The notes under the pieces were generated by a model. It did not search any database, was not told the DNA's origin, and saw nothing but the letters and a program-made list of their open reading frames with translations. From positions 10,044,001 through 10,108,000 of the forward strand of contig OX638160.1 of the NCBI GenBank assembly GCA_951804945.1: a stretch of 64,000 nucleotides of DNA. Reading direction: 5' to 3'. Shown here piece after piece: positions 9,903-60,324 of the stretch; the stretch's first letter is position 1; every line of letters begins with the position of its first letter. The DNA is from Podarcis cretensis (lineage: Eukaryota). The translations under genes and the position numbers were made by a program.

Positions 9903-10145
9903 ATGGCTGACTTGACGTTGCTAGGAGCTAACAACTTCCGCCGATTCACTCCCGAATCCTTGGTTGCCATTGAGAAATGCATTGCGGCCAAGAAAGCATG
10001 CGGAGACCCACCCCCTGCAGAGAAGCCACGCCCTCAGCTTGACCTACAGGTATTCCAGAAGCTGCCTGCCCTGTATGGAAACCCTCCTCTGGAGCTCATT
10101 GGAGAACCTCTTGAGGATCTTGACCCCTACTATCATGATCATAAG
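9903..10145 (+). CDS. SCN10A: Coding exon 1 (N-terminus MADLTLLG...DPYYHDHK)
   Basis: FRRFTPESL and PLEDLDPYY motifs; donor gtgaat at 10146; probable acceptor ttcag ending 9807. Confidence 0.93.
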
Positions 10146-16100: not shown

Positions 16101-16758
16101 TTAAATTAAAATTTATTTTAATTTTAAATATTAATTTTAAATTAATATTAATTAATATAATATAATATATATACTGTTGTATATACAAGAAAGGTCCTTC
16201 CGGATCTTACTTGCATATATAATGCTTTGCACGGTAGAGACACTAAGGCCGTAGACAAGCTCCCGGCTTTTAAGCATTGCAGGGGGTTGGACTAGATGAC
16301 CCTGAGAGCCCTTTCCAACACTACAGTTCCATGATTCTAAGGGCTGTCCCTCTGCTTCTGCCAGGCCATTGGTTTTCTGGACAGTGAGAAAGAACTTAAT
16401 GCCCCCCCACCCCACTTGCTGATACCATGACTGCATCGGACTCCATGGGGGGCGTCCCTGTGCCAGCTCTTTAGAGGGTATTTTAGCCCTGGGCAGCGCC
16501 ACTTCTGAATGGCAGCAAATTGTACCTGCAGTGGCCATTTGATTGACTGCGATGTTCATTTACCCAGAATGTAAGGCCTCCCCAAGTTATACACCTATAG
16601 GCCAGTTTGGGGGTAAATGGAAGATGCCAAGCAGCCACTGTAAACTGGAAGCCAGGCTCTGCTTCCATTCAAGAGCAGCATAGCTGTCCATTGCCACTAA
16701 AAGGCCTTTCATGGGCACAGCGAGGAGTATGTTGACTAGAGCTACAGTTGGGTCAGGC

Positions 16759-16798
<40 letters not shown>

Positions 16799-19700: not shown

Positions 19701-22700
19701 AAAGCAAAACATGTTGGCTGGCTGCCCATTTACAAATCATACAAACTGTGCTGAAAATTCAAACCCACTGATTACAGATCCGAATGCTGTATAGGTTTGC
19801 TACCAACAATGAACAGATTTTCTCTGTTCCATCCATCTGTTGTTTTTATTTATTAAATGGAGCACATAAAACAATTTACTAAGTGCTGTACACAGAATAT
19901 TTAGGAAAGCATGGGTTTATTTGCACTACATTCCACTATGTTTCACTTTGAGTTTACCTCAGATAAGTTCTAAAATTAGTATCAGAACTGGTGTATGCTT
20001 GTATCATGCATTGGTGTTTGACACAGTTTTCACTTAACAATGAATGTTAAGTGAACTCTAGGTCCATTTGGACACTCCAAATTGTTCTGCAGGTACTTTG
20101 ATTTTGGAATTCATATGTCATTCATTCCCCCCCTCTACAGGTCTGAAAGTCATTGTAGGTGCCTTAATCCAGTCTGTTAAGAAACTCGCAGATGTTATGA
20201 TCCTGACTGTTTTCTGCCTGAGTGTGTTTGCCCTCATTGGTCTTCAACTCTTTAAAGGACATTTGAGACACAAATGTGTCAAGAACTACACGGAATATAT
20301 CAGCCAGAGCATATCCAATGAAACATCCTTTTCATCTAAACAGAACTTGACTACGTATGAGAATTTTACTAATAGCCCAGGTAAATGCTGTCCTCAGATC
20401 TTTGCAAAACAATGGATTTATTCCATCTTCTGTCTCCAGGTTTGAAATGGGCCCTAGCAAACAAAACACACGAGTCTGCCACTTCAGACTGTTACTCCTA
20501 AGAATAGTGAGAATTATAAGTATCAGATAAGTGCTTTGGTAGATTTGCCATGTGGGTAGCATTGGGATAAATCCTTTTTGGATTATTGCAATCTTACTTT
20601 CAAACTCCCAAGTGTTCTTCCATGAGTGGTGCGATTGTAACTGAACCCCATGCCTGAACTTGCACAGGATGGGAGTCCAAGGAATTGAGGTGGTAACTGA
20701 TCGAGTGCTAAATCATACTGACAAATTAAAAATGAACAAATCACCAAGTCCTGGTTGCATCCACCGAAGAGTTCTTTAACAATTCCTATGTAAAAAAGCT
20801 ATTGTCTAACAAAAATAAGAACATAAGAAGGAGGCCCCTGCTCAATGGAGAATGTTGGGCTTTCAAATTTCAGTGGCGATGCTGAAATTCAGCAGCCCCC
20901 GCCTCTTGCCTTCCGTTCTAAATCATTATTGCAGCACCCTCTCAGCTCAGTAGCCAGTGTGGGTGAAGCTGTCATGCTCCCCTAAATTTGCCTCTGCCAT
21001 GCTGGATCGGGCAAAAGGGCCATCAAGTCCAACACTCCGTTCTCACAGTGGCTCAGTGTAACTCTGATACCCAGCAACTAGTATTTACAGGCACAGTGTG
21101 CCTCCAACAGTGGAGGAGGTAGAACATGACCTCATGGCGAGTAGCCATCAAAAGCCTTAACCTCCATGATTTGATCTGATTCTCTGTTAAAGTCATCCAA
21201 GTTGGTGGTCATCACTACATCTAGTGGGTGGGAATACCATAAGTTAACTATGTGTGAAGAAGTATTTGTTTTGCCCTGCCTAATATAATGTTCAGCTTCA
21301 CTGGACAGGATGCTAGTCATCCAAATGTGCAGCAGTTGTGTAAAAGGCAAAATCCAGTATCATAATGCCATTATTCAAATCTGTGGCGTGACCACACTGG
21401 TAACCATATTGTGCACAAATGATGCCGTCCCCTTTCTTGCCCCCACTGAAGCCTTGCTTACTGGGGTTGCATGGCTGCAGCTTCCAAGTTCAAACAATAC
21501 TGCATGGAGGCAGTGTTGTTGTTGCCAATTTTCCTTAAAATTAGCTCCAAAATGTCCCTGTGATTTTGCCGAAGCTCAACAACTTAACAACTTTGGTGAA
21601 GAAAGTTCAACAACTTTTGTGTCCAGATTTTCACTTTTTGAAATATGGCAACCCTAATTTAGTTTAGTGCATGAGCAACAGGAAATCTTGGGCTCATGCA
21701 CTCTTCCTTCCCCTCCCCTCCTTTAGCACAGATGTGATTAGAAGCACCCACTTCTGGTTTTAAACCGTTTCACATTATATCAGAACTGGAGGAACAGTGA
21801 TTAGTTTATTTTTTATTTTTATTTTTTCAAATAATATTTATTCAAGTTTTAAAAGATTACAAAAAGGAACACAGTATATAAAAGCAAAACATATCCAAGA
21901 GAAAAATAAAAATAAAAAAAATAAAAAAGCAAAAACAGCTAAAAAGAAAAAAAGATACAATCAAAAAAGACAAAAGAACAAGTTAAACCTTGATATAACT
22001 CCCTTTCTTAACTTATCTCCTTGACCTCCTCACACCTCCCCTCTTTGTATTCTAATTCAAATAGATATTTCAGCAAATCCTTCATCTTTTTTTTTATCCT
22101 TATAACTTATCTTAATATACTGTAATTTTCCATTCTCTCATTCGCCAAATAGCCATCCACTTTTACTTTATTTAATCTTATTTCTCCTTAGAACTTATAT
22201 ATCTGAACTTATTCTCTTAAGACGTTTTCCCTAGGGTCACAAAAATTCCATTCCACGATTTTCCCATCTCTCATTAAAAGAAAAAAAAAAATTATATCAC
22301 AATATATACACTTTAAATTCCCAATTTTTCTTTCACCATCTCCCCTCCCCGGTCTCGGCTCCTGCCAACAGTTCTCCAAAAGTCCATCAACCCGGAGATC
22401 TTAAGTCCGAGGCTCTTAACTCTCTTTCATGTCCCCTCTGCCGATCTTTTTGATAGTCTTTGGTGTTAAAGAACAGATCCCGGGGGAGCTCCAGACTTGC
22501 TAAGAAGGAACAGTGATTAGTTTAAACCATGGTTTGTTGATGAGCCAGGTCGATAACCATGGGTTTTGACAAAACGACTGGCTGTTTTAGAACCTCTACT
22601 TATCTGGAACCATATTTATCCTTGACTCTTTTGTTGCAGTGAATTACATACATAAGAATGACACTGAAGATTATTTATTGTGCAGCAATGCTTCAGATGG

Positions 22701-25700
22701 TGGGTAAGTTTACATAATACCTGTTATGAGTGTGTTTAATATCTGTTATTCACTCCGAATATTTATTTACTTTCTGCTTACTTACCTCCCCTCCTCCCAA
22801 AACTGTGGCCCACATTCTCAAATTCAATTTTTGTGTGTTCAAAGTCAAATGTGACCTTCTCATTATTTTTGCATGTGAAACATTGTGAATGTGCCCCTGT
22901 GTGGTAAGATCTGAGATCTACCATTTTCAGTTTGAAGCTGCAGTTCTGTTGCAAGGGTGGGGAACGATTTCCAGCCGAGGGCCACAAATTCCACTCTGGC
23001 CAACCTACTGGGAGCCATAGCTCTGCTGAATGTAGGAGCCATGTTTTTGAAAGAAAAAAAATTCACATATTTTCAAGTCTCTCCATATACAATGGTACCT
23101 CGGGTTAAGTACTTAATTCGTTCCGGAGGTCAGTTCTTAACCTGAAGCACCACTTTAGCTAATGGGGCCTCCTGCTGCCACTGTGCCAGTACTGCACAAT
23201 TTCTGTTCTCATCCTGAAGCAAAGTTCTTAACCCGAGGTACTATTTCTGGGTTCGCGGAGTCTGTAACCTGAAGCGTATGTAACCTGAAGCTTATGTAAC
23301 CCGAGGTACCACTGTATTGGCAGAACTTTCTCTTCATAATTAAATGCTGGAGAATTTTATCACTGAAACAAAGTTGTTATTTGCAGTTCCTGCCCGCCGA
23401 AATACGTATGTCTGAAGGTTGGAGAAAATCCTGACTTTGGGTACACAAGCTTTGATACGTTTGGCTGGGCCTTCCTTTCCCTGTTCCGCCTCATGACGCA
23501 GGATTACTGGGAACGCCTCTATCAACAGGTATATGCTTCAATTCTTTTGAAACAAATTGCATGGGGAAATTGCCATAGAAATTTGAAGCGGCTTGCTCTG
23601 CCTACCTTTTACAGCTCCCTTCTTAGCTATATAAGTAGTAGAATGATATGCTACAGTCTACCAAGTGGAATCCTGGGGTGATAATATGAGATGAAAATGT
23701 TGTCACAGGGTCCTGAGCTGGTAGAATGAACTGTGCCACCTCAGAGCACAGAAGGGGGATCACAGTTATGAATGTTCCTTCATGTAAAAACATGTAAAAA
23801 TATTGTTAGCCATCTAAGGGTTCTCTTGGGCCCAAAAGGCAGGAGACTGACAGGAGATATGATAGCCACCTTCAAATATCTCAAAGGCTGCCACTGAAGA
23901 TGGAGCAAGCTTGTTTTGTCTTGTTCTGGAGGGTAGGACCCAAACCAGGGGATTAAATTTACAAGAAAGGAGATTCTGAATGAACATCAGGAAGAACTTT
24001 CCGACAGTAAGAGCTGTTGAACAGTGGAACAGACCACTTTGGGAGGTGGTGGACTCTCCTTCCTTGGCGGTTTTTAAGCAAAGCTTGGATCATCCATAAC
24101 ATAGAATTTCATGTGTCATTTTTAGATTTAATGTTGTTTCTTTCATCATCTTTATTTTGGTTAATGAATTACTGTATTATTATTTTTTTAGTGTGGTTCA
24201 TTGTTTTCTATATGGTTCCAAAGGCCTTTTCCCCTTTAACATATGGGAAACTGGTGATGAAAACCTTAACATTTTGTAAACATCACAACCAAAAGAATGA
24301 TTGCTATATTCTTTCTGACTACAGACTCTCAGAGCATCTGGGAAGATCTATATGCTGTTTTTCATGCTGGTCATATTTCTGGGATCATTCTACCTGGTCA
24401 ACTTAATCTTGGCTGTGGTCACGATGGCCTACGAAGAACAGAGCACAGCCACTATTGCTGAAACAGAAGCAAAAGAAAGGAAATTTCGTGAAGCCATGGA
24501 GATGCTGAAGAAAGAGCAAGAGGTTCATATATTGCCCCATTGCTAATCAACAACTACCTCCATTTCCCCAGAAACATAATTTATAGCAGTAGTTATATAT
24601 AGTATGTATACAATAAAACATAAAACACCATTAAAAACAATACAAAACGATAATTAAAATGGCCGACTAATGAAATATTTTTTTAACAGCTGCATAGGTC
24701 TGCTGGCATAAAAAAAGGTCTTTAGAATGGGGGAAGCAGAAATTGAACATGGGATGGATCTAACATGGTCAAAGCAAGATTAAGCACCAGCTTCCATGTT
24801 TCATGTGTCCAAAAACTAGGAACTCAGACTTGAAACATAGCTAACACCACCTGCTGGGCAAGAAAAATCTGTCAAGACAAAAATCCTTTTAGAAAAACAC
24901 CGTGATTAACTTTAAAATCATGAAGGTTGTGAGTAATTTGGATATCCAATGCAAACTGTTATCTGTGAATGGGAAGTTGACATACCAAAAAGTATTTATT
25001 ATTATTATTATTATTATTATCTCATATGAAGACATAATGGTACAATGCCCACTTCTCTTTTTCTTCATTCTAGGAATTAGCTGCGAAAGAAAATGACAGC
25101 ATGTCTCATAGCTCATTTGAAGTGTCACCTATAGGTTCTAAAGAGGTCAAAGAACGAAGCAACAGAATGAAAAAGTTGTCTTTGGGGATGGAAGATTATG
25201 GGGAAGATCCCAAAACCCCAAAATCACAGTCTAGTGACAGCTATCGGAAACCGGTAGTTATTTCATAAGGCTTTTGTTGTTGTTTAGTCATTTAGTCGTG
25301 TCTGACTCTTTGTGACCCCATGGACCAGAGCACGCCAGGCACTCCTGTCTTCCATTGCCTCCCACAGTTTGGTCAAACTCATTTTAGTAGCTTCAAGAAC
25401 ACTGTCCAACCATCTCATCCTCTGTCATCCCCTTCTCCTTGTGCCCTCAATCTTTCCCAGCATCAGGGTCTTTTCCAGGGAGTCTTCTCTTCCCATGAGG
25501 TGGCCAAAGTACTGGAGCCTCAGCTTCAGGATCTGTCCTTCCAGTGAGCACTCAGGGATGATTTCCTTAAGAATGGATAGGTTCGATCTTCTTTGCAGTC
25601 CATGGGACTCTCAAGAGTCTCCTCCAGCACCATAATTCAAAAGCATCAATTCTTTGGCAATCAGCCTTCTTTACTGTACAGCTCTCACTTCCATACATCA

Positions 25701-27551
25701 CTACTGGGGAAACCATAGCTTTAACCAACCATTATTTCTTTTCACTTTTAATTGCACTCTAACTTGTCTTCATAGATGGAGGAGCTTAAATGAAGGGAGA
25801 AAAAAGGTTTTAACTGAAACACTTAATTTTTAATCAGCATTTGCCAACCCCAAATCTACATGAATGTTTTTAGAAAATTTACATTTTAGAAAGTATATAT
25901 ATTCTACAACAGTAGGAAACCAATCTATGCATAAAGGTTTATATGTGATGTATTTGTTTTCTTCTACTCTTAGCAGTTCTCAGAATAGGCCACTAGTAGG
26001 CCACAACAATAAAAAATAGCAAACCCTGTCCATAAATCAACTAACAGCCATAGAATAAATCAGTTGCATTGTCATCTGTCTGAATAAAGGTGTTACAAAA
26101 TGGTAATCCTTCCTGGTGGCCTTACATGGTGGTAAGTATAAGAATTAACAGAGGCTTATAAATAGCAAGTTCCTTGGTTCCTGTGACTGGTAAGGAAGCC
26201 ATAAGTGATTAACAGACTTATGTACCGTTACTAGTGGAAAATTTTGTGGAGTAGTTAACTGGGAGACAGGAGTGTATGTGCAAGACTGAGTTAATGAGAA
26301 GCAGGCTATCACTCCTAACAAGCTGCCACTTCTGAACGCAGAGTGCTCTTTATTAACAGGAAGGCACAAGGCCAATCATAAAGTTTTCTGCTGCACTTGG
26401 TAGGATTTCTGTAAGTGACTCTTACACCCAACATTAAATGTATTTAGTACAGAGCATGTCAAAGTCTGCATCACTCTTGCTATTTTTTCCTTCTTTTGAT
26501 CCCTGCAGTCTCTCATTAGCCACAATTATGGTCCTAGTTCAAACCCAACCAAACGCCGACCAAGTCATGGAAGTGTATTCAATTTCCATGTACCCGGCCG
26601 AGATGCTGGTTCAAGGGCTGAGTTTGCGGAGGATGAATCTAGCAGCATTGGGGAGACGGAGATCCAGCACAGCACACTGCTGGCTGCACGAATGGGAAGG
26701 CGTCCAAGCATCCAAAGTCAAACCAGCTACAGTCCTCACCTGACAGCTCCAAACTACGTGCAGCCCGGCAGATGGGCCACTGGAGACGATTGCAATGGGA
26801 TGGTTTCATTGATGGGGGGCAGTGGAACAAGGCCGTTTAACATGGATCCCATTTCCAATGAAGGGTCATTGCTTCCTCCAGTTATGGAAAATCCTGGGAA
26901 AGGAGATCTGGTGAGTTGAGAATGTAATCAGACAGATGCAATTTTCTAATTGGTGGCTTCCCTCCAGTTGTCTAGGATGCAGTAATCAATTTTTGCTATG
27001 TGTTTTTTGTACCTAGAGGAAAAATGAATCCACCCCTAAAAAATATCCTCAAATTACTTCCCTACAGATGATGATGATTTAAATTTCTTCCCCAGCCTTC
27101 ATCATTAGTCCCAGGGCAATTTGCAACTCTCTCTATATATATATGTTGTTGTTGTTGTTTAGTCGTTTACTCATGTCCAACTCTTCGTGACCCCATGGAC
27201 CAGAGCACGCCAGGCACTTCTGTCTTCCACTGTCTCCCGCAGTTTGGTCAGACTCATGTTTGTAGCTTTGAGAACACTGTCCAACCATCTCGTCCTCTGT
27301 CGTCCCCTTCTCCTTGTGCCCTCCATCTTTCCCAACATCAGGGTCTTTTCCAGGGAGTCTTCTCTTCTCATGAAGTGGCCAAAGTACTGGAGCCTCAGCT
27401 TCATGATCTGTCCTTCCAGTGAGCACTCAGGGCTAATTTCCTTAAGAATGGATAGGTTTGATCTTCTTGCAGTCCATGGGACTCTCAAGAGTCTCCTCCA
27501 GCACCATAATTCAAAAGCATCAATTCTTCGGCGATCAGCCTTCTTTATGGT

Positions 27552-27589
<38 letters not shown>

Positions 27590-30500
27590 TCTCTCTATAT
27601 ATATCTATACAAACAACAACAACAACAATTAAGATTATTATCCTCTAACCACTTCTCTGGGAGTAAACCTCATTGAACTCAGTGGGATTTACTTCAAAGT
27701 AGGCATTCATAGAATCTCACTGTAAATGTATTTGTGAATAGTGGGCATGGAGGGTGGTGAGCGTTACCAAAATGTTTGGGGGCAGGGGCAGACTTAAGGA
27801 AGAAGGAGTAGTAAGAGCTAAGAGGTGAGAGCCCTGTGGTATGAATAAATAGCAAATATTTCCTTTCTGCACCATAGTGCATGCATTCTCTTTTAGCTAA
27901 GGACTGCTGTGCAGCTCTAAAGCTAAGATTCCAAAGGCACACCCATATTGAAGACTAACAAATGCATTATGACAGAAGCTTCCATGGAACTACAGCCTGC
28001 TTCATCAAATGCATGAAGTGTTGTCCCGAGTTACATGTAAACTGGGTGAGGAAGGAACTAATAAATAGTGAAGTGAGAGGAAAATGAAACTTAGAACGAC
28101 TGAACAATAATACTCATTGTCACTCGACATTTCCCCCGAATGTATTAAGACTGTGTGATCCACCGAATTTTGCAATAAGCATATTTACGTTCATATCTGT
28201 TTCTCTTCCTGCCTGAAATCGAAGCACATAAAGCTTCCATAACTAGACATGTTGTTTACATCTTTAAACAGACTACTTCTTGTGATGAAGCCAACAAGAG
28301 GTTCCAAACTCAGCGTCTCTCAGTAGATTATTATAATCACCCACTTCAAAGACAAAGGGCAGCAAGTGCAGTCAGTATCATTACCAGTGCGCTGGAAGGT
28401 ATGTTGTTGCATATTCATGGGCGCAAATATAGTGGTTGGATACCAAGGTTAAGGACATGCTTTAAATGCCATAAATGGGCGGATTTAGCACTTGCACTTG
28501 GGTCTATGTATTGTTCCTGTGTTGCATATCACCTTTAAATAGGGATTCAGTCCTGGCTCATCCTTGAGGCAAGATGAGACAACTGCTTCAGGTGGCAGGA
28601 ATCACAGGGCTAGCCGATCCGAATGTAGACCTTTACTGTCCCTTTGTTCCTGATGTGGGAGTTGGGGCTACGGGTTTGTTTTGTTCTGGTTTTTCATATG
28701 AATTTTGTGTTTTTACTTTGTATGTTTATGCTGTAAACCACCCTGAGATTTTCAGATAAAGGGCAGTATACAAATTTAATAAATAAAAATAATAAAATAA
28801 ATGTAGATCTTCTCTCACCCTTTCCTCACCGGTAGGGTGGGAGGTGCCATTTAGGGATTTTCAAGGTAACTAGCTAGCACTTTGGGATCAGAAACAGATA
28901 GGAAGCCAGTGAAATTGGAATAGCAATATAGTCCCATGAGCTGTAGCTCAGTGGTCAAAGAAACATGCCCTCTATGTGGAGACCCCCAGGTTCGTCCCAG
29001 GTGTCTTCATGAAGAGCTAGACAAGATTCCTGAAAGCCACTGAACCTGCTGGACAAAGCTTCTGACATAAAATAGTTTCCTATGGTCTTACAAAGAACTG
29101 GCCTATGGGATTGTTAGGAGTTTGGCCTACACTCGAGTAGGACCCTGGCAGAGACACATGCCCGACTGGCATGTTCTCTCCCTCCTGGTCGATCGTTCAG
29201 GAGCTTCCAAAGCTTTCTTCAGCCTTAACATCACAGCGACCGATGCCAACCGACACCGGCACACTTAGGGATCCGCAGAGTTTGCGCAGTTGCATAACAG
29301 ACCTCAGCAACTCAGCATTTTGGCTAATCTACTTTATTTACATATAAACACACACGGAGCACTGTAACATGGCTCCCTCTCTCTCTAGCATCAGACAGCA
29401 AAGAGAAAAAGAACAAAGGACAATAGTCCCACTTCACGGAACACAGTAACACAAAAAGCCTGTCTTCGTCACTTCCCACTCTGTGGAGTCAAAACATATA
29501 CCGTCATGTGAAAGACAACAATCCCATGACTGCAATCACGGAGCAGGAATTCTAACAGAGATATCAATTACAATAGACCTTGATCATACATTTTTAAAAA
29601 GAATTCTGCTGGAGCATCAAGAGATTCAGTAGGAGTTGTTCTCACAAATCCTTATTGATCCCACTTCCTGACCATAGGCGCGTGTTTCTAAATATTTTTT
29701 TTACGGGTGGGGGGGACCTTACTTTATTGTATTTACTGTTTAGAACTTGAAGAATCTAATCAGAAATGCCCCCGCTTCTTGAAGAACTTGGCTGCAAAGT
29801 ATCTTGTGTGGAACTTTTGCCCACTGTGGTTGAAGATAAAGAAGAATGTGGGCGTTTTTGTTATGGATCCATTTACGGACCTCACAATCACAGTTTGCAT
29901 TGTGATGAATACTCTTTTTATGGCGCTAGAACACTATAAAATGTCCCCTGATTTCGAGGCCATGCTTGGGATAGGCAACAAGGTAAGCGAATTCTGGCAA
30001 GCAGGATGTTCTGCATCAGCATGTAATAAGCTTTTATGCATTTGTTATTATTATCATATTGATTTCTGACAGCACTCATCCTTCCCCAAAGGGTATAAGG
30101 TTCAATGACTCTCACCTATCACTATCTCAAGAAAATTCTTTATTAATTTATTTCTGTTAACTATGACAAACGGTTATATCTCTTGGTATTAGCATACCTA
30201 GATATTTAATAGATTCGGAACAAATCTGGAATTTATATTCCTTGGATGAATGTGTAAACAGGTTTTGACTTATTGGCATCAGTTCTGATTTGGAGCAATT
30301 AACAGAGTAACCAGATACAGTGGTGCCCCGCAAGACAAATGCCTCGCAAGACGAAAAACTCGCTAGACGAAAGGGTTTTCCATTTTTCGAGGTGCTTCGC
30401 AAGACAAATTTCCCTATGGGCTTGCTTCGCAAGACGAAAACGTCTTGCGGGTTTGCTTCTTTTTTCGTAAAACCGTTAATACCCGGGGAATCCGCGCTCC

Positions 30501-33500
30501 GCAAGACAAAAAAATCGCAAGACGAAGCAACTCGCAGAACGAATTAATTTCGTCTTGCGAGGCACCACTGTACTTTACCAAAAGCATCTGTTGTTTGCAT
30601 CAAGATGGGAATACTAGCCTGAACAATACAAAATAAACAAAAGAATATCGTCTGCAAATGACACTAATTTATATTCAATATTATAAATCCTACAATGTTG
30701 TCTAATAGCGCAAGCCAAAGGAAAGGTGGCAGACATACTGCCATTTACTTTGATTCTAGGAGTGGCTGCCAGGACAAGCCACATGCTCTTCTTATATGCC
30801 ATGGGAGTGGACTGAGCCTGCATCCCAGGAGTGGCCCACCCCCTTGCCCACTCACAATTGGCTGATTGAGCGAGCTTGCAGGATCTGTTGCCTGGGCAGC
30901 AAGCTCAGCCCAGGGACCTCCTTTGCTGCCCGGGACACAGCCCACGGGGCCTCCCTCATCTGATTGTGAAGGGTGATGGAGGGAGTGCCAGACCGCAATG
31001 GAGCCCCCCAGGAAGGGTTTGCGGACTTCTCAATGTGCCTGTTTGTCATGTGAACTGTCCCTAACGCCGGCATGAGGAGAGAGGATTCTGGAACATACAG
31101 ATTTGACGTCTCCACTTCTATTTTGCAGATTTTCACCGGAATTTTCACTGCAGAAGTGATCCTGAAAATCATTGCGCTGGATCCCTATTATTATTTTCAG
31201 CAGCGCTCAAATATCTTTGACAGTGTGATTGTCTTCATAAGCATCATTGAACTGAGCAGTGAACCCAAAGAGAATAAGGCATCAGGGAAAAAAGGCAGCA
31301 GGAAAGGAAATTTTACAGTTTTACGGACCTTGAGGCTGGTAATCCCTTGCTCTCTTTTTTTCTCTTCCTTCCTTTCTTTTTGGACATATAGGACAGGATT
31401 TCCCACAAGCTACATCTCTTGCAGAAGATCACTATTGATTATACATTTGTGGAGCACTGTGAAAGATTTAACTTGCTAATCTCCAGATGTGCCCTGTGAG
31501 GGATGTTATTTTCAGATAGAGGAAATTGAGGGCAAGAAGCAGCAACTTCCCCAAGGCCACCCGGTGCTTTCAGGACCAGGAAGGGAGTTGAAAATATGTG
31601 TCCAAGGCCAGCTCCTGTGCTGTGCTGCTTGGGAGAGACATGAAGGAGACAAGCTATCAGTGGCCACTAGACACGATGGCCAACTATTACTTCCAGCATC
31701 GCAGACAGCATGCCTCTAAATACCGGTTGCTAGGGAAAAATGAATGGGAGCGTGTTACTGCATTCAAGTTCTGCTTTGGGGCTTCCCCATAGGCACTTGT
31801 TTGGCTGCTGAGGGTCGGACATAATAAATAACAATATGTTCAAAAGAGAACAAAAGGCAAGATGAAGCTGAAAAGAAGGATAAACAGAGTTAGAACTAAG
31901 GCTACAAAGAATAGAAACTGCCAAACTGTTCTGTTCTTTGGTTATCTAACAATACAATACTTTCCTCCCCAACAGATGCGAGTCTTCAAGTTGGCGAAGT
32001 CTTGGCCAACCTTAAACACCCTTATTAAGATAATTTTAAACTCAGTGGATGCTCTGGGCAACCTCACCCTCGTTCTGGCCATTATCGTCTTTATCTTCGC
32101 TGTATTTGGAATGCAGCTATTTGGGGGCAACTATAAGACTCATTGCAAGAAATTGGCCGATGACTGCAAACTACGATGGCATATGCAAGATTTTTTCCAC
32201 TCCTTCCTTGTTATTTTCCGAATTTTGTGTGGAGAATGGATTGAAACCATGTGGGGTTGCATGGTGGTCAATGAGCAATCTATGTGCTTGCTTGTCTTCT
32301 TGCTGGTCATGGTGATTGGAAATTTAGTGGTGAGTTTACAGATACCTTTTGGTTTCCCCTCCCCTTTTTATCAAAATTTTGCTTTGCTATTAATGAAAAG
32401 GGGAAATGTGTTTGAAAAGGCCATCCTCATGCTGTATCTTTAAAATAAGACAAGACTAGTATGTGGAATGGTAGCATTCCAGAAAATCTGTCCTGGGCTG
32501 CTTCTGCCAGGTTCTTGGAATCACAAGTGGGGAGGGTGCTGTTGTACTCAGGTCCTGCTTGCAGGTATCCCATGGGCATCTGGTTGGTTACTGTGCAAAC
32601 AGGAGGCTAGACTAGATGGGCCATTGACCTGATCTAGAAGGGCCCTTCTACTATTCTTATAGGGACGTGGGTGACACTGTGGTATAAACCAGAGAGCCTA
32701 GGGCTTGCCGATCAGAAGGTCACCAGTTTGAATCCCCGCAACAGGGTGAGCCCCCGTTCTTCAGTCCCAGCTCCTGCCCACCTAGCACTTCGAAAGCACA
32801 TCAAAGTGCAAGTAGATAAATAGGTACCGCTCCGGCGGGAAGGTAAATGGCGTTTCTGTGTGCTGCTCTGGTTTCGCCAGAAGCAGCTTAGTCATGCTGG
32901 CCACATGACCCGGAAGCTGTACGCCGGCTCCCTCGGCCAGTAAAGCGAGATGAGCGCCACAACCCCAGAGTCAGTCACGACTGGACCTAATGGTCAGGGG
33001 TACCGTTACATTTTACTGTTCTTACGTTCTCACATCTTTCAGTCTTTTCTCAAGCTATTGGGAAATGAAATGAAATTCCATAATAAGGAGTCAGGAGAAG
33101 GAAGTAAAGCATCTTACCTGCCTCTCACTCTTACCTGGCTTTGTAGGCAGATTTTCTGCTCTAATTTGTCGATATTTATTCATTCCACCTATGCTCTAAA
33201 ACTAGTTTGCAAAGAATTAATAAGAATGAAAACAGATGTATCATTTTAAGAGTAGACAATGCATACAACTAGGGTAAAATGTGCATTAAAAAGCATATAT
33301 TAATTAAGCCAACATAAAAATGCATTATATTACAGAAAATCATTTTCCAGAAATGCGTATATTAGGCAAAATTGCATACAAAGTGTGTGTATCACAATAA
33401 ATTTGCACTAAATTGCTGGTGAATTTTCATGGGTTTTTTTAAAAAAATAAAAAACCCCACACATGTCAATTGATGTGGAGAACTGAACTTGAGGTTGACA

Positions 33501-36500
33501 AAATGAGAAACTGGGAAAAACCAAAATTGACAAATTTTGCCTATCCCTGGCTGTTGGTTGGTTTCCTTGTCCTGGTCATGCCAGAATTGGGTGTTTCCAT
33601 CTCTCTTCAGAAAAAACCAAAACAATTATGCTAGAAATGTTGTTAAACATTTGCTCTTCCCGTTCCTTTGAGGTGCTCAATTTGTTCATTGCCCTGCTGC
33701 TGAACTCGTTCAGCACTGACAACCTCCTCCAACTCCCGGAAGACGACCGAGAAACGAACAACCTTAAAATTGCCTTCGCTCGGATCCACCGAGGGCTGCA
33801 TGCAGCAAAACAGGCAATGTTGGCTTTTTGTTTCAAAGCTCTTGGGTACAAGCGGAAGGCAGCTCAGAAGAAAATAAAATGTGAATCTGAGAAGAACGGG
33901 TTGGAGCTTCGAAAAGTTCTCCCGAACTTCAAGGAGGGCCATGGTAACAGAGAGATCGAGAAGAACGGGGAGAGGTGCTCAGTTCATATCCCGGATGATT
34001 TCATCAGCAACCCCAATGTGTTTGTCTGTGTTCCCATTGCTGCCCCCGAGTCCGATAGCGAGGGTTCTGAAGATGCTGATGAGAAGCAGGGGGCAGCCAT
34101 GGAGACAGAATATACTGAGAAGGTAAGGAGTCAGCTGAAGGCCACATTTCCATGTTCAAGGAAAGGCGGGCAAATATTGCAGCGGACAGAAATGGAGACA
34201 GCAATATTAATGTCAGCCCTCAATATTCTGTCCCAGTTTCTGAACATTCTGTCACACTGTAGAATTAATGAGAAGCAGAAGCAATGATGTGATTGTGCTG
34301 ATAGAAGGTCACCTCATGAGGAACAAGATTAGCTTCTGCCCTAACAGTGTTAGTAGCTGTATTCCCTCACCTTTGCTCATAGGCTGTTTCAATGCAGTCC
34401 TGTGTGTCGTTTTCCTCTTTCTCCTCCTCCTCCTATCATCATCATCATCCCCACATTTCCTTCAATAAGCTCAATATGGAATACACTCTTTTTTGCTCTT
34501 AATTGTTCACCTCATTTCCTAGCACAGCTTCCCTCCACCCCCTGCCCATTCGCGTGAAATTTGACTGATCACATCCTGAAGCATCATGACGCTAATCTAA
34601 CCGGGAAACATTTGTAAACAAAACCACATGGGTGGCTGCAGCCAATCAGATTAAGAGGCAGTGTTGGGCAAGTGAGGCTGAGGATCAGGGCGGAGAAGGA
34701 AAATGGCACTGAGAAGAAGCAATAACCAGGGAAACAAAAGTGCATTTCCCTTGTGTGCTGTAGCTACTCCACCTAGAGAGCTGGTACAAGCTACTCATAC
34801 ACATCGTGATCCAATAGGCCCACCACAGCTCACCAACAATGAACCGTGGTTCAGGAAGCACTTGATAAAGCTGTTGGTATTGCTGCCTGCCGGAAGGCCA
34901 AACTATATGTGATGCTGGGAGATCAGGGGCTGTAGGGATTCTGATAAGGAATGTAGTAGGAGTGGAAGAGACCTTATCTTTTTCCTGAATGCTTGCATGA
35001 AAATGCCCTCTTCCAGTGCTATTTGCCCTGCGAGGCACAACATACAACTACATTATGGATACCTGTATGTTTCCCTCTGCGAGGCAAATACCAGCTTGGG
35101 CAAGAGATTTTCACTGGGAAATGGTGCAGGGGGAAATTCTGCCACTGTCCCAATTAGAATCCACTCCCCTACAGATGACAGTAATTTTGTTTGAGTCACA
35201 GAAATACATCTCCCTTTAGCTCCCATGGCTTTAACTAACAGTAGGAGGGAAAGGGTTCCCCCCGAAAAAACACAAATACAGTGCAGATGAATGTGGCTTC
35301 TCTTCAGCAGGAAAACCAGCTGCGATTGAGAGGAGAGCGGAGCAAGAGTTCTGATGCCTGGAGCCGAACATCTGAAATCTCCTCTCCTGGGGAAATAAGT
35401 ATGCATTGGAAAGCTGGGTCCTCATCACCAAAACAAAAAGAGGTAAAAGTTATTCACCAATAAAGAAAAGCAAAAGCTGATAATGATAATCCAGATGATA
35501 AAATGCCCTGATTGCAGAACTGGGTAAGAAAAAAAAAGGTTGCATTGAAATCGGGACGAAACAAACAAACAAAGTCACAACTCTAATTGAAACGTCACCA
35601 TTCAATGTGTTGAACTGAAACCCAAGCAGGTTGTTTTGAGTATCTTTCTTTGACTGTTTGTGTGCCTCTGATGGTTGGTTGGTTGGTTGGTTGGTTGGTT
35701 GGTTGGTTAGTTAGTTAGTTAGTTAGTTAGTTTGCTTGCCTGTCTGCCTGCTTGTTTTGAGGGGTAAGGCATGCTGATTCAGAGCCTTTGAACCTCTCTT
35801 TTGGTGCCGAAATGGATATTGTAGACCAGAAATTTATATGTGTTACATTAATCACACAGCAAGTGTGTCACCGATTTGATTTCATTTGATTTAATTTAAT
35901 ACCAGGCACCAAAACCATACCATGTGGGGAGATGAGGTTTAACACTTTAACCCTCATGGCAAAAATACATCCCTCCCAGCGCAAATATTAGCCTTAGGAA
36001 AAAATCCTCCTATTGACTCCGGTGACTAATTGTTGCACTGTGGTGCAGGGAGGTTGGGTTTTGTCAGGATTTCACCTAGGAATTGAAAGGTTAAATCTCC
36101 CATTCCCATGCGCCATGGTCCTGATGTGAAAATCACTCCTCCCAATATGCCTAGCATTAAATTTCTTAAAATCCACATGTGGCTGCTAATGACATTAATA
36201 TAAAATTCTAGCTGCACTCCTGTTAGGCAAAACCGACAGACAATGCCTGGTAAAAAAGAAAACTCAAGGCTCTATTTTTCTTTTGCAGAGAGCTGACATT
36301 ATTAGCTGCTCAGAAGGCAGCACCGTGGACCTAGCAAACTCAGAAGAATTCCTGAAGCAGATCCCTGAACTAGCTGAGGACTCGGAGCCAGATAATTGTT
36401 TTCCTGAAAGTAAGGATGCACTTCATCAATTTATTCTATGCAGGGCTACATAATTTCAGAAACATGGGGCTGCAACCCAAAATGGCTAGCCTGTGCTTCT

Positions 36501-39500
36501 TGTCTTCTTTTTCATGCTTCCACCTGCTGACAATGATGTAAGCGAGAGCAGTGATGGGAAGGGGGATCACCAGCTTCCATTAATTGCAGGATGCATGCTA
36601 AAAGTCAGTTGCCAGTACTATTTAACTTGTACAAGGGTTCTAAAGGTAAAGGTAAAGGTAAAGGGACCCCTGAAAATTAGGTCCAGTCGTGACCGACTCT
36701 GGGGTTGCGGCGCTCATCTCGCTTTATTGGCCAAGGGAGCCGGTGTACAGCTTCCGGGTCATGTGGCCAGCATGACTAAGCCGCTTCTGGTGAACCAGAG
36801 CATCGCACGGAAACGCCGTTTACCTTCCCACCGGAGTGGTACCTATTTATCTACTTGCACTTTGATGTTCTTTGGAACTGCTAGGTTGGCAGGAGCAGGG
36901 ACCGAACAACGGGAGCTCATCCCGTCGCGGGGATTCGAACCACTGACCTTCTGATCGGCAAGTCCTAGGCTCTGTGGTTTAACCCACAGCACCACCCGTG
37001 TCCCTTACAAGGGTTGTACCAACCCCATAATGTGGATTATTATTTATTGTGTGTCTCTTTCAGAATTTGCTCAGCGTTATCCTTGGTGTATGGTGAACAC
37101 TGAAAAGTTTCCAGGCAGATTATGGTGGAACCTAAGAAAGACATGCTACCGAATTGTAGAGCACAACTGGTTTGAAAGCTTCATTGTGTTCATGATTCTG
37201 CTGAGCAGTGGAGCTCTGGTATGTTAATCTGATTCTCACACGCAAAACTCTGTGGCTTAAGTGGCACACTGGACAGAGCAGAGAAAAGAAAGATTATATT
37301 TCTAAACCACCACTCCATTCCAAGATGAAATAATGCTGGCAAACAAAGGGGGCACATTTTGCTGATTTGGGAATTGGAGCTCTAGCCAGATGGTATTAAG
37401 CACCATTGATCAGTACAATCCTATGTATGTCTGCTCTGATATAAATCCCATTGAGTTCAATGGGAACTCACTTCCCAGTAAGAGTGCATAGGATTGCAGT
37501 GAGAATGAAGCCTGACTGGGTGCTTGGATCAGGTTTTCAGTTTGGGGAAATACTCGTGCACCTCTATCACCACCACCAATGGATATATATTTAATCTGGG
37601 AACACTGTTTGGAAGGCCAAATTTCTCTGAGATTATGGTGGACCCGTTATTCTTTTACCAGCATGGCACGTGCCACCATATCAAGATTCCTTTCTGTACT
37701 GTATTTCACCAGTCAAGTGTTTTAGTAGTTTTAATGTGCTCATTAGTTTAATGAATTGTATAATCATGTCACCTGCTGGTTAGTTGTTGTATGTAGGGTT
37801 GCCTATACATCTGGGTTTTCCTGGACATAGAAGGGACTGGGCCCTCAAAAATTGTGTCTAGGGAAAATTTCCGATAAGGGTTAAAATGACTGGGGAAACC
37901 CAGACGTATGGCAACCCGATGCAGCCTCCCCAACAGCTCCAGTCACAGAGGCAGCAGCAAAAGGAAGGCAGAAAAGGAAGCAAATGCCTGAGTGGGATAG
38001 GGGATGGACAGACACACGCCTGGCTAGAGCCTGGCTGGGCAGGTGCCCCTCACTTCTGTCGAGGCAGGCGGAATAAGTCCTTGAGGGGACCCACGCCTCC
38101 AATCTGGCCCTTCCCTTGCCCTTGCAGAGTGCTGAGACAGACAGGGAGCTCCTGGGTGGGCCTTAGGGTCCCTGCGGCTCCTGGGAATGTTGCCTCAACA
38201 TTCTCTGAGAGGGGTCGGTGCTGGGACACCTCACTATGGGGAAACTAGGAGACTCCAAGTGTGCGCACACCAGCCTTCAGGGAAAAAGGAGTCCAGCTGC
38301 AGGGCCACGCTCCGCTTCGCCCACCGAGCTGGGGCGGATGGGCCTTCTTTGCTGGCTGCCTCACTGGCCCAGGACGGCCTCACCCCGGCAGGCAGCCCGA
38401 GGTGCCCGTTGAGCCTCCCTGTGGGATCGCTGAGACACACCCTGTCTGTCCTTCCTGTGTCTGGTGCACTACAAAGTGCATCTGGCCGGAGGAGACACGA
38501 CGCCTGCTGTGTGCCAGACTCAGCCGCATGCCTGGTGGGAAGAGCAGCAAGGCAACCCGGGGAGGAATGCAGAGGCTTGGGATTGGCTGGAAATTGTGCC
38601 TCCCACCTCGCCAAACCCCAAACAGCTGGAGGCTTTGGGGAGCAGTGCTCACCCCAAGCCATGCTTGCACCAGCTGCATGCTGGGGCAGCCTTGGAGCAA
38701 AGAGGGCAACACAGTCTTGGTGCCTCGGCTGAGCCCAGTGCACCAGTGGCTGCAGCGGATTGCCTCACCACAGGATGCAAGTCAAAAGCCAGGCAGGCCC
38801 TGCCAACACATTTACCATCAATTTATTTATGGCAAATCCCCACCCCCCAAAAAAAGCTCATCAACTTTGGTGTCTGGATTTTCACCTTTTGAAATATGGC
38901 AACCCTATTGTATATGCCACTCTGTAATCTTCAGTGAAGAAGAGCAGCTAATAAATACAATAACTAAATAAATATTGATGAATACATGTGCACATTCTCC
39001 TTCTGCAGAGGAGGGAGGCATTACATCATAGAAATGTAGAATTGGATGGGACCATAAGGGTCATCTAGTCCAACCCCCTGCACTGCAGGAATCTTTCGTC
39101 CAACGTAGGGCTCGAACCCACGACACTCAGATTAAGAGGCTCATGCTCTACCGACTGAGCTGTCCTATTTAATGGTTGGAAAAAACTGAAAACCATCACA
39201 AAATGTCACATTGACAGTGGTCCAGGTGAAATCTGGAAATCAGCAAGTTTTTGCTAATAGATTGGTACTGTTCCACAAGCTGGGTAAGATAGTTTGGAAC
39301 AAACAAAATCCAGGAAAAATTCAGGTGCAGAGAATTTTAAGCGTCCCTACTTTATTGTAAGCCACCCTGAGTATTTTATGTTATGGGTTGCCAGTGTTGT
39401 AACATCACTGCATTTAGTACGTGATTGCCTGGGATCATTCATTTGCCGTATCCTGTGCCCTCCAGTTCTCATGGAGATATATATATGTTTGGCACAGCTC

Positions 39501-42500
39501 CAGTATTTTGGTTATGCAGCAGGACTGGAAAATTGCAGTACATTCATACAATTAAGGAAAGATTGTAAAGAAGTCTGCAAATTAAAAATTCTGCTTGATC
39601 AGTAGCAAGATACATCTTAACTTTCTTATTCCAGGCATTTGAAGATATACACTTGAGTGAGAGACCAAATGTTAAAATCATGCTGGATTATGCCGACAAA
39701 TTGTTCACTTACATCTTTATCCTGGAGATGCTGTTGAAGTGGGTGGCTTACGGATTCTACAAATATTTCACAAATGTTTGGTGCTGGCTTGATTTCATAA
39801 TTGTAGATGTAAGTGTTGCCTTTGAACCATTCTGTGGAGTGGGTGCTGTTAGCTTCCAAGGTATAGCGACTGGGCTTTCTTGCACTCTCCTTGCTTAAGG
39901 GGAAGCCCTGCAATTTGTGCAAAATGGTTTTATGCTTTCGTTTTGAAGTGGTGCTTTAGCATGTATGAAAAACGTTTGTGCATGGCAAGGAGGCAGATTA
40001 AGGTTCATAGTGAAATTGTTCCTTTGTGTTTTTTGCTACTATAATCTCCCCTCGCTACTTTTTTCTGCAGGTCTCCTTAGTAACCCTCGTAGCAACTTTG
40101 GCTAAACAATCTGACATGGGTCCCATAAAGTCTCTCAGAACCCTAAGAGCTTTGAGGCCATTAAGAGCCCTGTCACGATTTGAAGGGATGAGGGTAAGTT
40201 GAATGAACGCCATCACTGAACATTATCCCTATGAAAATGCCTTTGGTTTGTAAATAGTTTCTTTTGAAGTCTACTGTGATGAGGGGGTGGTAGAGGGGAT
40301 TGGAACAGGGATTCCCATTTGGCACATCAAAGATTTCTGCGGGTCTTGAGAGGTTTATGAACATGTTCTATATTGTTGGCAACAGACAGGCCTTTTTTCA
40401 GCCAGAACTCACCAAAACTCAGTTCCAGCTCCTCTCAGGTGGGTGCCATTGCCATTCTTAGAGAACAAGGGAAGCACTTGTGGTGAGTTCCAGCACCTCT
40501 TTTTCTAGAAAAATAGCAGTGGCAATAGATGTCCAGGAGACATCTTTGTTACCCACAACACAGTAGTTAACTTTGACGGTAAATAGTATGGAAACATTAG
40601 AGTATGAGGACCATGGGAGTGGATTTAAGGCTGCAGAGATCAAACCATGTTCTTCAAATTACTTTGAAAATCAGATTTACTTCAAGGGCAAGAGCAGCCT
40701 GTTGCTGTGATACAGAAGACATTCATGCTAGCACATGTTTCAAAATGGCACCAGGTTATCTCCATGGAACATAGCACCATCACATTCTTGAAATAAGTCA
40801 CCTCTTTACTGAGGTGTCCCATCACCTGCAACAGCTCCCTGCTGTGTTCTGTGTGCAACACAGGGTGCTATTTCTCATCTCTAAAGCATTTTACCGCTTG
40901 GTTGAAATATACCTAAGAGACCACCCCTTCTCTATGCCCCATCATGATCTCTAACACTGCATGAGAACACCGACTTGAATCTATCATGCTTGGACTGAGT
41001 CTAGACGGCAGTGGCAAGGACTAGTAAACTTATTAAGGTGCCTTTTCAACATGAACATGCTTTGTTGAGATTAACTATACTTCTGCTGATCCGATCTGAC
41101 ATAGCTTTCCTATGAATGGGTTTGAGGGGCATTCAGTATGCAGTCTGAACCCATGATTTATATTTGGAGGTGCGTGTGGGAGGAGAGAGGTTGAAAGGCA
41201 CAGTTTATTGCCTTGGAATCTTTTTTCCTTCTTGTTATTTAGATATATTATGGTGAAGTTCATGGATTTATTTTTTTACAAAAATAATTTTATAAGTGGT
41301 GTGTCTTTGTTTAGTATGTATTGTGGTATTTTATGCATTGTGACTTGCTGATATTTTTATGGATTATAATTTGGTAGTTATTTATTATAATTGTTAAAAG
41401 TAAATCTCTGTTTAAATATTGTTTGCTGATATTTAATTTCATTGTGTACTATTATATTCTGGTGGGTTATTGAATATTAATTTATTTGAGTTAAGATGTT
41501 TTTATTATGACTTTTAAAAAATCCTTTCATTCCCTTTCTTTCCCCCCTCTTCCCCACCTTTCAAAGGTGGTGGTCAATGCCTTGGTGGGCGCCATCCCAT
41601 CTATTATGAACGTTCTTCTAGTCTGCCTCATTTTCTGGCTCATCTTCAGCATTGTGGGAGTCAACTTGTTTGCAGGAAAGTTTGGAAAATGCGTTAACAT
41701 GACTGAAGCAAATGCCAGCATAAATGAGACCATAATTACTAACTTCAGTGACTGTAAGGAGCACAACAGGACCGACGGGATGTTATACTGGATTACAGTT
41801 AAAGTGAATTTTGATAATGTTGGCTCTGGCTACCTGGCTCTTCTCCAAGTGGTAGGTCTTATAGCACAATGCACCTGTCTCCGCATTCTCATTCTCTCTT
41901 TCCTGTCTACCTTCACTGTTGCCGCTGTTGCCTTTAGTAAAGGTAAAGGTACCCCTGCCCGTATGGGCCAGTCTTGACAGACTCTGGGGTTGTGTGCCCA
42001 TCTCACTTAAGAGGCCAGGGGCCAGCGCTGTCCGGAGACACTTCCGGGTCACGTGGCCAGCGTGACATCGCTGCTCTGGCGAGCCAGAGCCGCACACGGA
42101 AACGCCGTTTACCTTCCCGCTGGTAAGCGGTCCCTATTTATCTACTTGCACCCGGAGGTGCTTTCGAACTGCTAGGTTGGGAGGTGCTGGGATCGAGCAG
42201 CGGGAGCGCACCCCGCCGCAGGGATTCGAACCGCCGACCTTTCGATCGGCAAGTCCTAGGCGCTGAGGCTTTAACCCACAGCGCCACCTGCGTCCCTTCG
42301 CTGTTGCCTTTAGTGATACCTAAAAGCAAGACTTTTATGATAGTTGCTGTTGCTGCAATAACTCCCTCAGTGCATCCTTGCTTCAAAAGCCATTCTCTTT
42401 CTTTCTCAGTAACACTTGTTCTTCTGAGTCTATAATAACTATAGCCATAAGTTAATTATGTACATTGTATAGAGAATTTTGTCACTGAATGGTCTATAAA

Positions 42501-43509
42501 TCTTTATAGCTACAAACAAACAAACACAGCTACTTTCTAATCCTTTGTTTTGTGGCAAGTTGTTTAAAAATACATGTTAAATATTGAACGTTCTCTGCTC
42601 AAAACATTAGTAATATCCTCTAAGGACTCCAGGATCTGGTGGCTTGTTACTTTGCCTGTTAGCTCTCAAACACCACCTTTTGCCAACTCTGCTTGATTTA
42701 GCCAAACTCATTTGGAGTTTGGCTAAATCAATTTAGTTTACCAACTAAAGATGTCAGGGACTGAATCGAAGAGTCTTGTGTGCAAAGCATGCTTTCTACC
42801 ACTGAGGTTTGGCTAGCTCATCAATGCTGGTGCCTCACAGCCTGAGCTGAGCAGGACTGGTGTCATATCTAAGAAACCAGCATCCTTTGGGTCACTGGCC
42901 TATATTTACTCAAAGACAGGTGTGGATATTTGCACAATATATTCTGAGTGAAGACTGATGCAAAGAAGTCAAAAAGATTCACTAGGTTTTTCCCACCCTC
43001 TTTCAGCACATCTATTGACGTACCTTAATCATATTTATATTAGTCTGTTTTTTCTCTAGGCAACTTTCAAAGGTTGGATGGAGATAATGTATGCAGCAGC
43101 AGATTCAACTGATGTAAGTCACAGAAATGCACGTGCTCATTCTTCTCTTCTTTTCACCTGCTCAGTGGTGTAATAGTAACGTAAGGGAACCCGCTCAAGA
43201 GTCAAACTAAATTAATATCAGTGTGTATGGCATGTTGCTCTGAGAGGCCTTCTGCCATTTCCCTCACAGTGAGAAGTGAAGTTACAGGGAACCAGGCAGA
43301 GGGCCTTCTTGGTAGTGGTGCCCTCCCTGTGGAACGCCCTCCCATCAGATGTCAAGGAGATAAATAACTATACAACTTTTAGAAGACATCTGAAGGCAGC
43401 CTTGTATAGGGAAGCTTTTTAATGTTTCATGCTTTGTTTTTGTATATGCTGGAAGTATATACAACCCAGTGAGACGGGCAACCCTGTCAGAGGAGTGGGG
43501 TACAAACAA

Positions 43510-43545
<36 letters not shown>

Positions 43546-60307: not shown

Positions 60308-60324
60308 AAAGTTTCTGGAAAGTT

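What the first reader, a model, noticed from the sequence alone, without database searches (positions are those of the whole stretch)
32024..32056. DII S4-S5 linker has Asp at the Nav1.7 G856 position and a second Gly>Leu
Seen: [13 protein letters not shown] versus the family consensus IKIIGNSVGALGN (TTA 32036-32038, GAT 32048-32050). Known: human Nav1.7 G856D is a gain-of-function pain variant that hyperpolarises activation, and the adjacent residue corresponds to the insect super-kdr site. Inference: a disease-equivalent residue present in the reference sequence may lower the activation threshold (an ectotherm adaptation?) or be compensated by the Leu.
Basis: partly seen in the sequence, partly recalled or inferred. 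Interest (0 to 1): 0.72.

Follow-up and report, generated by a model that had tools for sequence, protein, structure and literature searches.

The report
Ancient lizard-snake pain-channel linker change
A lizard's pain-nerve sodium channel carries two unusual residues that most lizards and snakes sampled share; the site is not the human pain mutation first named but a neighbouring one with milder known effects, so this is an old, untested retuning of the channel rather than a disease-like oddity.

Summary
The letters are as described, but the numbering is three residues off. The gene (9903-50635, +) is a lacertid SCN10A (Nav1.8), not Nav1.7. The Asp sits at Nav1.7 G853 and the Leu at G849; G856 is still Gly (32057-59) and the super-kdr site is still Ile. 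The Asp site equals Nav1.9 G699 and Nav1.2 G879, where Gly>Arg shifts activation negative (about -10 and -4 mV), though G699R shows no significant pain association in UK Biobank. Neither change is an error or recent: Leu is in 32 of 32 squamate Nav1.8 records (26 species), Asp in 26 of 32 (all 21 non-iguanian species); tuatara has Gly/Gly and five iguanians lack the Asp. The pair belongs to a cluster of squamate changes in domain II (S3 Trp>Ser, S4 Phe>Leu, S5 Val>Phe; 5 of 22, uncorrected P=0.011). Ectothermy does not explain the distribution, and Leu is not tied to Asp. Best reading: an old, retained retuning of domain II coupling with a probably modest gating effect; no recording exists in what I searched. 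Main rival: relaxed constraint, since all three linker glycines vary in reptile and bird Nav1.8/1.9.

The parts
9903..50635 (+). SCN10A (Nav1.8) coding span, start codon to stop
   Evidence: 27 tblastn pieces cover 2028 of 2028 residues of the Zootoca orthologue P0122; four filter motifs and IFM present; paralogy
31976..32329 (+). Exon for DII end of S4, S4-S5 linker, S5, pore loop, S6
   Evidence: open frame, AG/GT ends; 100% to P0005, 98% to P0004
32033..32035 (+). Ile at the super-kdr site (Nav1.7 I848, Nav1.2 I874); unchanged
32036..32038 (+). Leu replacing Gly at Nav1.7 G849 (Nav1.8 G781)
   Evidence: 32 of 32 squamate records
32048..32050 (+). Asp replacing Gly at Nav1.7 G853 (= Nav1.9 G699, Nav1.2 G879, Nav1.8 G785, housefly G923)
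   Evidence: 26 of 32 squamate records
32057..32059 (+). Gly at the true Nav1.7 G856 position; unchanged
32105..32107 (+). Phe replacing Val in DII S5 (Nav1.7 V872 site)
   Evidence: 18 of 24 aligned squamates; geckos keep Val, skinks Cys
31207..31209 (+). Ser replacing the Trp at the start of DII S3 (Nav1.7 W797)
   Evidence: no Trp in 24 of 24 squamates, Trp in 23 of 23 others
31255..31308 (+). Long basic DII S3-S4 loop (net +4), shared by reptile and bird Nav1.8
31330..31332 (+). Leu replacing Phe in DII S4 (Nav1.7 F826 site)
   Evidence: 23 of 23 squamates with a residue there, Phe in 23 of 23 others

Best explanation
The gene is the squamate Nav1.8. On the branch between tuatara and crown squamates its domain II voltage-sensor-to-pore coupling path was remodelled: S3 Trp>Ser, S4 Phe>Leu, linker Gly>Leu (G849 site) and Gly>Asp (G853 site), later S5 Val>Phe. 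Shown: identity, numbering, distribution. Inferred: the Asp puts a side chain at the linker/S5 junction, as Arg does in human Nav1.9 G699R and Nav1.2 G879R, and so most likely eases opening by a few mV up to about 10 mV and adds some persistent current, on a channel whose basic S3-S4 loop should push activation positive. It is a retained isoform setting, not a disease state; Iguania lost the Asp while keeping the Leu.
For: Paralogy: trees put the gene with tuatara, turtle, alligator and bird copies apart from SCN5A and SCN11A (AU test against grouping with SCN5A p=1e-42); pore loops match the Nav1.8 rows of PMC6110522 Table S7; a fused king cobra model has a Nav1.9-type part directly before this gene. 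Distribution. Retention: Asp invariant in 19 of 19 non-iguanian rows although one transition returns Gly, versus 4 of 21 Asp sites invariant in cytoplasmic loops. Cluster: 5 of 22 squamate changes at conserved sites lie in 64 of 978 eligible sites (P=0.011). Site sensitivity: G699R -10.1 mV; G879R hyperpolarised activation and larger persistent current. Tolerance: the other three repeats of human Nav1.7 have Ile/Ile/Met and Lys/Pro/Pro at these two places. Loop charge effect: PMC13532856.
Against: No recording of any squamate Nav1.8 was found. Human data are for Arg, the opposite charge, in other isoforms; the G879R shift appears only in the adult splice form (my reading of the columns) and G699R has 295 UK Biobank carriers without significant pain association. 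All three linker glycines vary in reptile and bird Nav1.8/1.9 (bird Nav1.8 has Ser at G856 in 112 of 112 records). 59% of DII membrane positions are invariant in the same 19 rows, so the Asp is no more conserved than its neighbours. The cluster P is post hoc, about 0.045 after four domains. Overlap with Nav1.7 erythromelalgia sites is not beyond chance (2 of 4, P=0.10). Iguanians do without the Asp.
Confidence: 0.55

Rival explanations
1. Relaxed constraint: the linker glycines matter little in reptile and bird Nav1.8/1.9, and Leu and Asp were fixed with no real gating effect.
For:: G849 is Cys/Tyr/Arg/Val in 75 of 112 bird Nav1.8 records and non-Gly in all 58 reptile and bird Nav1.9 records; G853 is Ser in 11 of 19 records of one turtle copy; G856 is Ser in 112 of 112 bird Nav1.8. 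Other repeats carry side chains here.
Against: Asp held in all 21 non-iguanian species though Gly is one transition away; the site is gating-sensitive in two human paralogues; clustering in DII.
Confidence: 0.3
2. Compensated pair: Asp alone is harmful gain of function and the Leu one helical turn away cancels or permits it.
For: Both changes map to the same branch and lie four residues apart; every squamate with Asp has Leu (26 of 26 records); order Leu then Asp is possible.
Against: Leu persists without Asp in 6 iguanian records and in 43 Nav1.9 records; the turtle Emydura (P0178) has Asp with Gly at 849.
Confidence: 0.12
3. One reading: a G856D-equivalent that lowers threshold as an adaptation to ectothermy.
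For: G856D is a real gain-of-function variant in this linker; the true site also lowers threshold in human paralogues.
Against: G856 is intact. Ectothermic tuatara (3 of 3 records), alligator (1 of 1), turtles (40 of 41) and iguanians (6 of 6) lack the Asp.
Confidence: 0.03
4. Sequencing error, private allele or decaying pseudogene.
For: Two changes at near-invariant glycines.
Against: Same residues in 21 species; full-length coverage with all filter motifs; a contig of run X1 spans 31000-32566 with 2 differences, both listed outside these codons (X1 may not be independent of the window).
Confidence: 0.01

Closest known systems
Human Nav1.9 G699R (painful neuropathy variant; Han et al. 2015, seen only through PMC7351857, PMC5445024, PMC13684400)
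   Same: Same position (Nav1.7 G864/G853); Gly replaced by a charged residue; nociceptor channel of the same gene cluster
   Different: Arg versus Asp; rare human variant versus fixed ancestral state; Nav1.9 versus Nav1.8; population pain link not significant
Human Nav1.2 G879R (PMC10424433)
   Same: Same position, confirmed by the mutagenesis primer
   Different: Arg; brain isoform; small shift that depends on splice form
Human Nav1.7 G856D (PMC5102167, PMC5324268)
   Same: Gly>Asp in the same linker/S5 junction
   Different: Three residues further on; this gene keeps Gly there
Reptile Nav1.8 as annotated by Perry et al. 2018 (PMC6110522)
   Same: Same gene; pore loops match
   Different: In the parts I read the paper treats toxin-binding pore sites only, not the linker
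Mosquito G923V/G923S (PMC12522378)
   Same: Same position by count from M918 = I874; natural variation
   Different: Insect channel, pyrethroid context; the table gives no functional confirmation for G923V

Membership tests
SCN10A / Nav1.8 orthologue | Groups apart from SCN5A and SCN11A with other reptile and bird copies | tested here: met
   (support 99-100; AU p=1e-42 against SCN5A grouping); tree rows were orthologues 94-99% alike in most pieces (P0004, P0122), not the window itself
SCN10A / Nav1.8 orthologue | Pore-loop signatures of reptile Nav1.8 | tested here: met
   DI Tyr plus Arg and DII loop ending GCMV match the Nav1.8 rows of Table S7; Thamnophis orthologue has the DIII Thr described for Nav1.8
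SCN10A / Nav1.8 orthologue | Order SCN11A-SCN10A-SCN5A | tested here: inconclusive
   No neighbouring channel exon in the window; king cobra fused model P0144 puts Nav1.9 upstream; CpG island at 60-61 kb could be the SCN5A promoter (inference)
SCN10A / Nav1.8 orthologue | Direct grouping with full-length mammalian SCN10A | not tested
   Only one mammal-type exon (P0236) was retrieved; identity rests on the reptile rows of PMC6110522
SCN10A / Nav1.8 orthologue | Mammalian DII S5 residues K806 and L809 tied to depolarised activation | tested here: not met
   Window has Met and Phe there by the 7we4 offset; mammalian gating cannot be assumed
SCN10A / Nav1.8 orthologue | Expression in small sensory neurons; slow, high-threshold current | not testable with these tools
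   Needs tissue RNA and recordings
Functional Nav channel gene | Full-length frame, DEKA filter, IFM motif | tested here: met
   2028 of 2028 residues covered, motifs present; three pieces hold one stop each, taken to be overrun into introns, exons not spliced to check
Nav1.7 G856D-equivalent | Asp at the column of G856 | tested here: not met
   Gly at 32057-59
Disease-site residue fixed in another species (G699/G879 site) | Same column as a human functional variant | tested here: met
Disease-site residue fixed in another species (G699/G879 site) | Same substituted residue as the human variant | tested here: not met
   Asp here, Arg in both human variants
super-kdr-type change | Substitution at M918 / I874 | tested here: not met
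   Ile kept at 32033-35

The most novel reading that the evidence does not exclude
Stem squamates rebuilt the domain II activation machinery of Nav1.8 (S3 Trp, S4 Phe and two linker glycines, three of the five sites being human gain-of-function sites), turning it into a lower-threshold, persistent-current nociceptor channel unlike mammalian Nav1.8, with partial reversal in Iguania and a parallel Asp in a side-necked turtle: a natural series for dissecting sensor-to-gate coupling.
Probability: 0.25. Interest if true: 0.58.

Novelty: new variant of a known kind. Interest (0 to 1): 0.32.

Why it matters
Isoform- and lineage-specific changes at human channelopathy sites are a known kind of finding, and the headline match to G856D fails. 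What remains is a clean natural experiment: tuatara (Gly/Gly), iguanians (Leu/Gly), Emydura (Gly/Asp) and other squamates (Leu/Asp) supply all four states of a double-mutant cycle at a site where human variants have disputed effects. It would bear on how Nav1.8 sets its threshold and on reptile nociception, for which my searches found no channel recordings.

Tried and rejected
AlphaFold2 on the isolated exon (29 rows, pLDDT 88.9) gave one unbroken helix 11-55 and says nothing on the linker/S5 bend. Cluster look-up could not be made. Sequencing runs: no RNA holder listed; of 24 runs I laid 4; contigs of X15 (RNA only a guess) cover 31975-32125 and 32155-32332, edges near exon ends, which I do not count as evidence of expression; X14 did not cover the codons; 104 difference rows were not shown. 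Enrichment for Nav1.7 erythromelalgia sites: not significant. Iguania-specific partners of the Asp loss: five other positions found, none in DII S4-S6 membrane parts except S3 Val>Ile; not pursued. The first tree run timed out. Earlier scan findings: three look-ups, all empty. Gene conversion from SCN11A as source of the Leu: flanking residues differ, not testable without DNA. A recalled resemblance (Asp at this place in T-type calcium channel domain II) was not tested.

Full report
Observation. Window 32024-32062 translates as [13 protein letters not shown], with TTA at 32036-38 and GAT at 32048-50, in an open exon 31976-32329 bounded by AG and GT. The five best solved chains shown (Nav1.6, Nav1.1, three Nav1.7) have Gly at both places. 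The letters are real.

Numbering. The exon aligns without gaps over this stretch from residue 829 of Nav1.7 isoform 3 (7xm9) and 840 of the 1988-residue form. That gives I848, L at 849, D at 853, G at 856, L858. Passages of PMC5324268 name L844, I845, I848, S851, V852, A854 and L858 in that frame. Table passages of PMC5445024 list G867D and map Nav1.9 G699R to G864, two different positions. So the Asp is three residues before G856, and G856 is intact (GGC, 32057-59). The super-kdr site, M918 = mammalian I874 (PMC4261604 passages), is the Ile just before the Leu and is unchanged.

What the true site is. It equals Nav1.9 G699 (also derived from P0260 and literature residue numbers) and Nav1.2 G879 (offset assuming a 43-residue tag; confirmed by the G879R primer). 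G699R shifts activation by -10.1 mV (passages of PMC7351857 and PMC13684400; original paper not read). G879R is listed among hyperpolarised variants with larger persistent current (PMC10424433 passages); supplement rows read as about -4.4 mV, P=0.023 in the adult form and +1.7 mV, not significant, in the neonatal form (column labels only partly visible). Against a strong disease reading, G699R has 295 UK Biobank carriers and no association surviving correction. By count the site is also housefly G923, where G923V/S are listed in Aedes (PMC12522378 passages).

Which gene. The exon is 100% identical to a Podarcis muralis protein and 98% to Lacerta agilis: a lacertid. Twenty-seven pieces from 9903 to 50632 cover 2028 of 2028 residues of the Zootoca orthologue, with all four filter motifs and IFM (three pieces hold a stop, taken as overrun into introns). 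A 46-row FastTree and an 18-row IQ-TREE put the squamate copies with tuatara, turtles, alligator and birds, apart from SCN5A (2 rows, one half-length) and SCN11A; forcing them with SCN5A is rejected (p-AU 1e-42). No full-length mammalian SCN10A was in the trees. Pore loops match the Nav1.8 rows of PMC6110522 Table S7 (supplement part 184; main-text passages), and a fused king cobra model has a Nav1.9-type part directly upstream. It is SCN10A.

Distribution. All 278 proteins from the three homologue searches were classed by best match; these are top-120 lists, not a census. Squamate Nav1.8: Leu 32 of 32 records, Asp 26 of 32. By the names this is 26 species; all 21 non-iguanians (geckos, skinks, a cordylid, lacertids, an amphisbaenian, anguimorphs, snakes) have Asp, and the five iguanians have Gly (4) or Asn (1). 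Tuatara 3 of 3 records, alligator 1 of 1 and 30 of 30 other Navs have Gly/Gly. One of 41 turtle records (Emydura) has Asp without Leu. Both changes therefore map to the squamate stem (roughly 200-240 million years ago, recalled dates), with loss of Asp in Iguania. Error and private allele are excluded; ectothermy does not predict the state. Contigs of X1 and X5 span the codons; the listed differences nearest are a synonymous change at 32047 in X5 (some rows not shown).

Context. In a 47-row alignment, 22 of 978 conserved sites changed in squamates; five lie in DII S3-S5 (64 sites; P=0.011, post hoc; other domains 1, 2, 2): Trp>Ser at the start of S3 (Nav1.7 W797), Phe>Leu in S4 (F826, a site of Nav1.7, 1.4 and 1.6 disease variants), the two glycines, and Val>Phe in S5 (V872 site; geckos keep Val). 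Overlap with erythromelalgia sites is not beyond chance (P=0.10). Reptile and bird Nav1.8 also have a long basic S3-S4 loop (net +4 here; +3 to +6 in all 15 non-squamate rows); PMC13532856 (abstract and passages) shows that positive charge there shifts activation positive in Nav1.7, while removing it from Nav1.8 alone did little. The mammalian Nav1.8 residues K806 and L809 are absent.

Results against a special role. All three glycines vary in this gene branch: bird Nav1.8 has Ser at G856 in 112 of 112 records and non-Gly at G849 in 75; all 58 reptile and bird Nav1.9 records lack Gly at 849, 43 having Leu. The other three repeats of human Nav1.7 have Ile/Ile/Met and Lys/Pro/Pro at the two places, so side chains fit. 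The Asp is invariant in 19 of 19 non-iguanian rows, above loop background (4 of 21 loop Asp sites) but like 59% of DII membrane positions.

Mechanism. Shown: gene, positions, ancestry, tolerance. Inferred: a side chain at the linker/S5 junction biases DII coupling towards opening, giving a modest negative shift and some persistent current, within a jointly retuned domain (0.55). Rivals: relaxed constraint 0.30, Leu-compensated pair 0.12, thermal G856D story 0.03, error 0.01.

Novelty. Searches for squamate SCN10A evolution, linker changes or recordings returned nothing on these residues in their listings; only PMC6110522 was read further. The library lacks most subscription papers, so absence is weak. 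PMC5102167 and PMC4880298 were seen as passages only. Verdict: new variant of a known kind; headline claim wrong, corrected finding real and testable; interest 0.32.

Noticed in passing
window 31207-31209: The Trp at the start of DII S3, present in all four repeats of the human chains shown, is Ser/Ala/Pro in 24 of 24 squamate Nav1.8 rows; arguably more radical than the Asp.
   Followed up: partly
P0350-P0426 (Nav1.9 set): Reptile and bird Nav1.9 also lack Gly at the G849 site (mostly Leu), and squamate Nav1.9 has Pro right after the G853 site; shared Leu could be convergence or an old conversion between neighbours.
   Followed up: partly
bird Nav1.8 records (e.g. P0014, P0199): Ser at the true G856 site in 112 of 112 records and Cys at G849 in 71, mostly perching birds.
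   Followed up: partly
P0145/P0169 versus P0040/P0153/P0070: Turtles carry two SCN10A-like copies forming sister groups.
   Followed up: partly
P0178 (Emydura): Independent Asp at the G853 site with Gly at 849 and Asn at 856.
   Followed up: partly
window 60001-61000: CpG island (GC 0.61-0.63, obs/exp about 0.7) 10 kb after the stop; may be the promoter of the next gene, expected to be SCN5A.
   Followed up: no
window 32665-33013: Very high-copy repeat in the intron after the exon, SINE-like by depth and length; a similar copy near 42066-42263.
   Followed up: no
window 18539-19231 and 52852-53502: Related open frames that look like LINE retrotransposon ends by recall.
   Followed up: no
window 45324-45488 and 49376-50635: DIII S6 has Cys in place of a usual Phe (recalled consensus); the window has Glu in the DIV pore helix where Lacerta P0004 has Gln, as some Nav1.8 rows of Table S7 do.
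   Followed up: no
P0231 (Euleptes Nav1.9 model): Gene model includes a reverse-transcriptase insert (PF00078), probably a mis-annotated retroelement.
   Followed up: no
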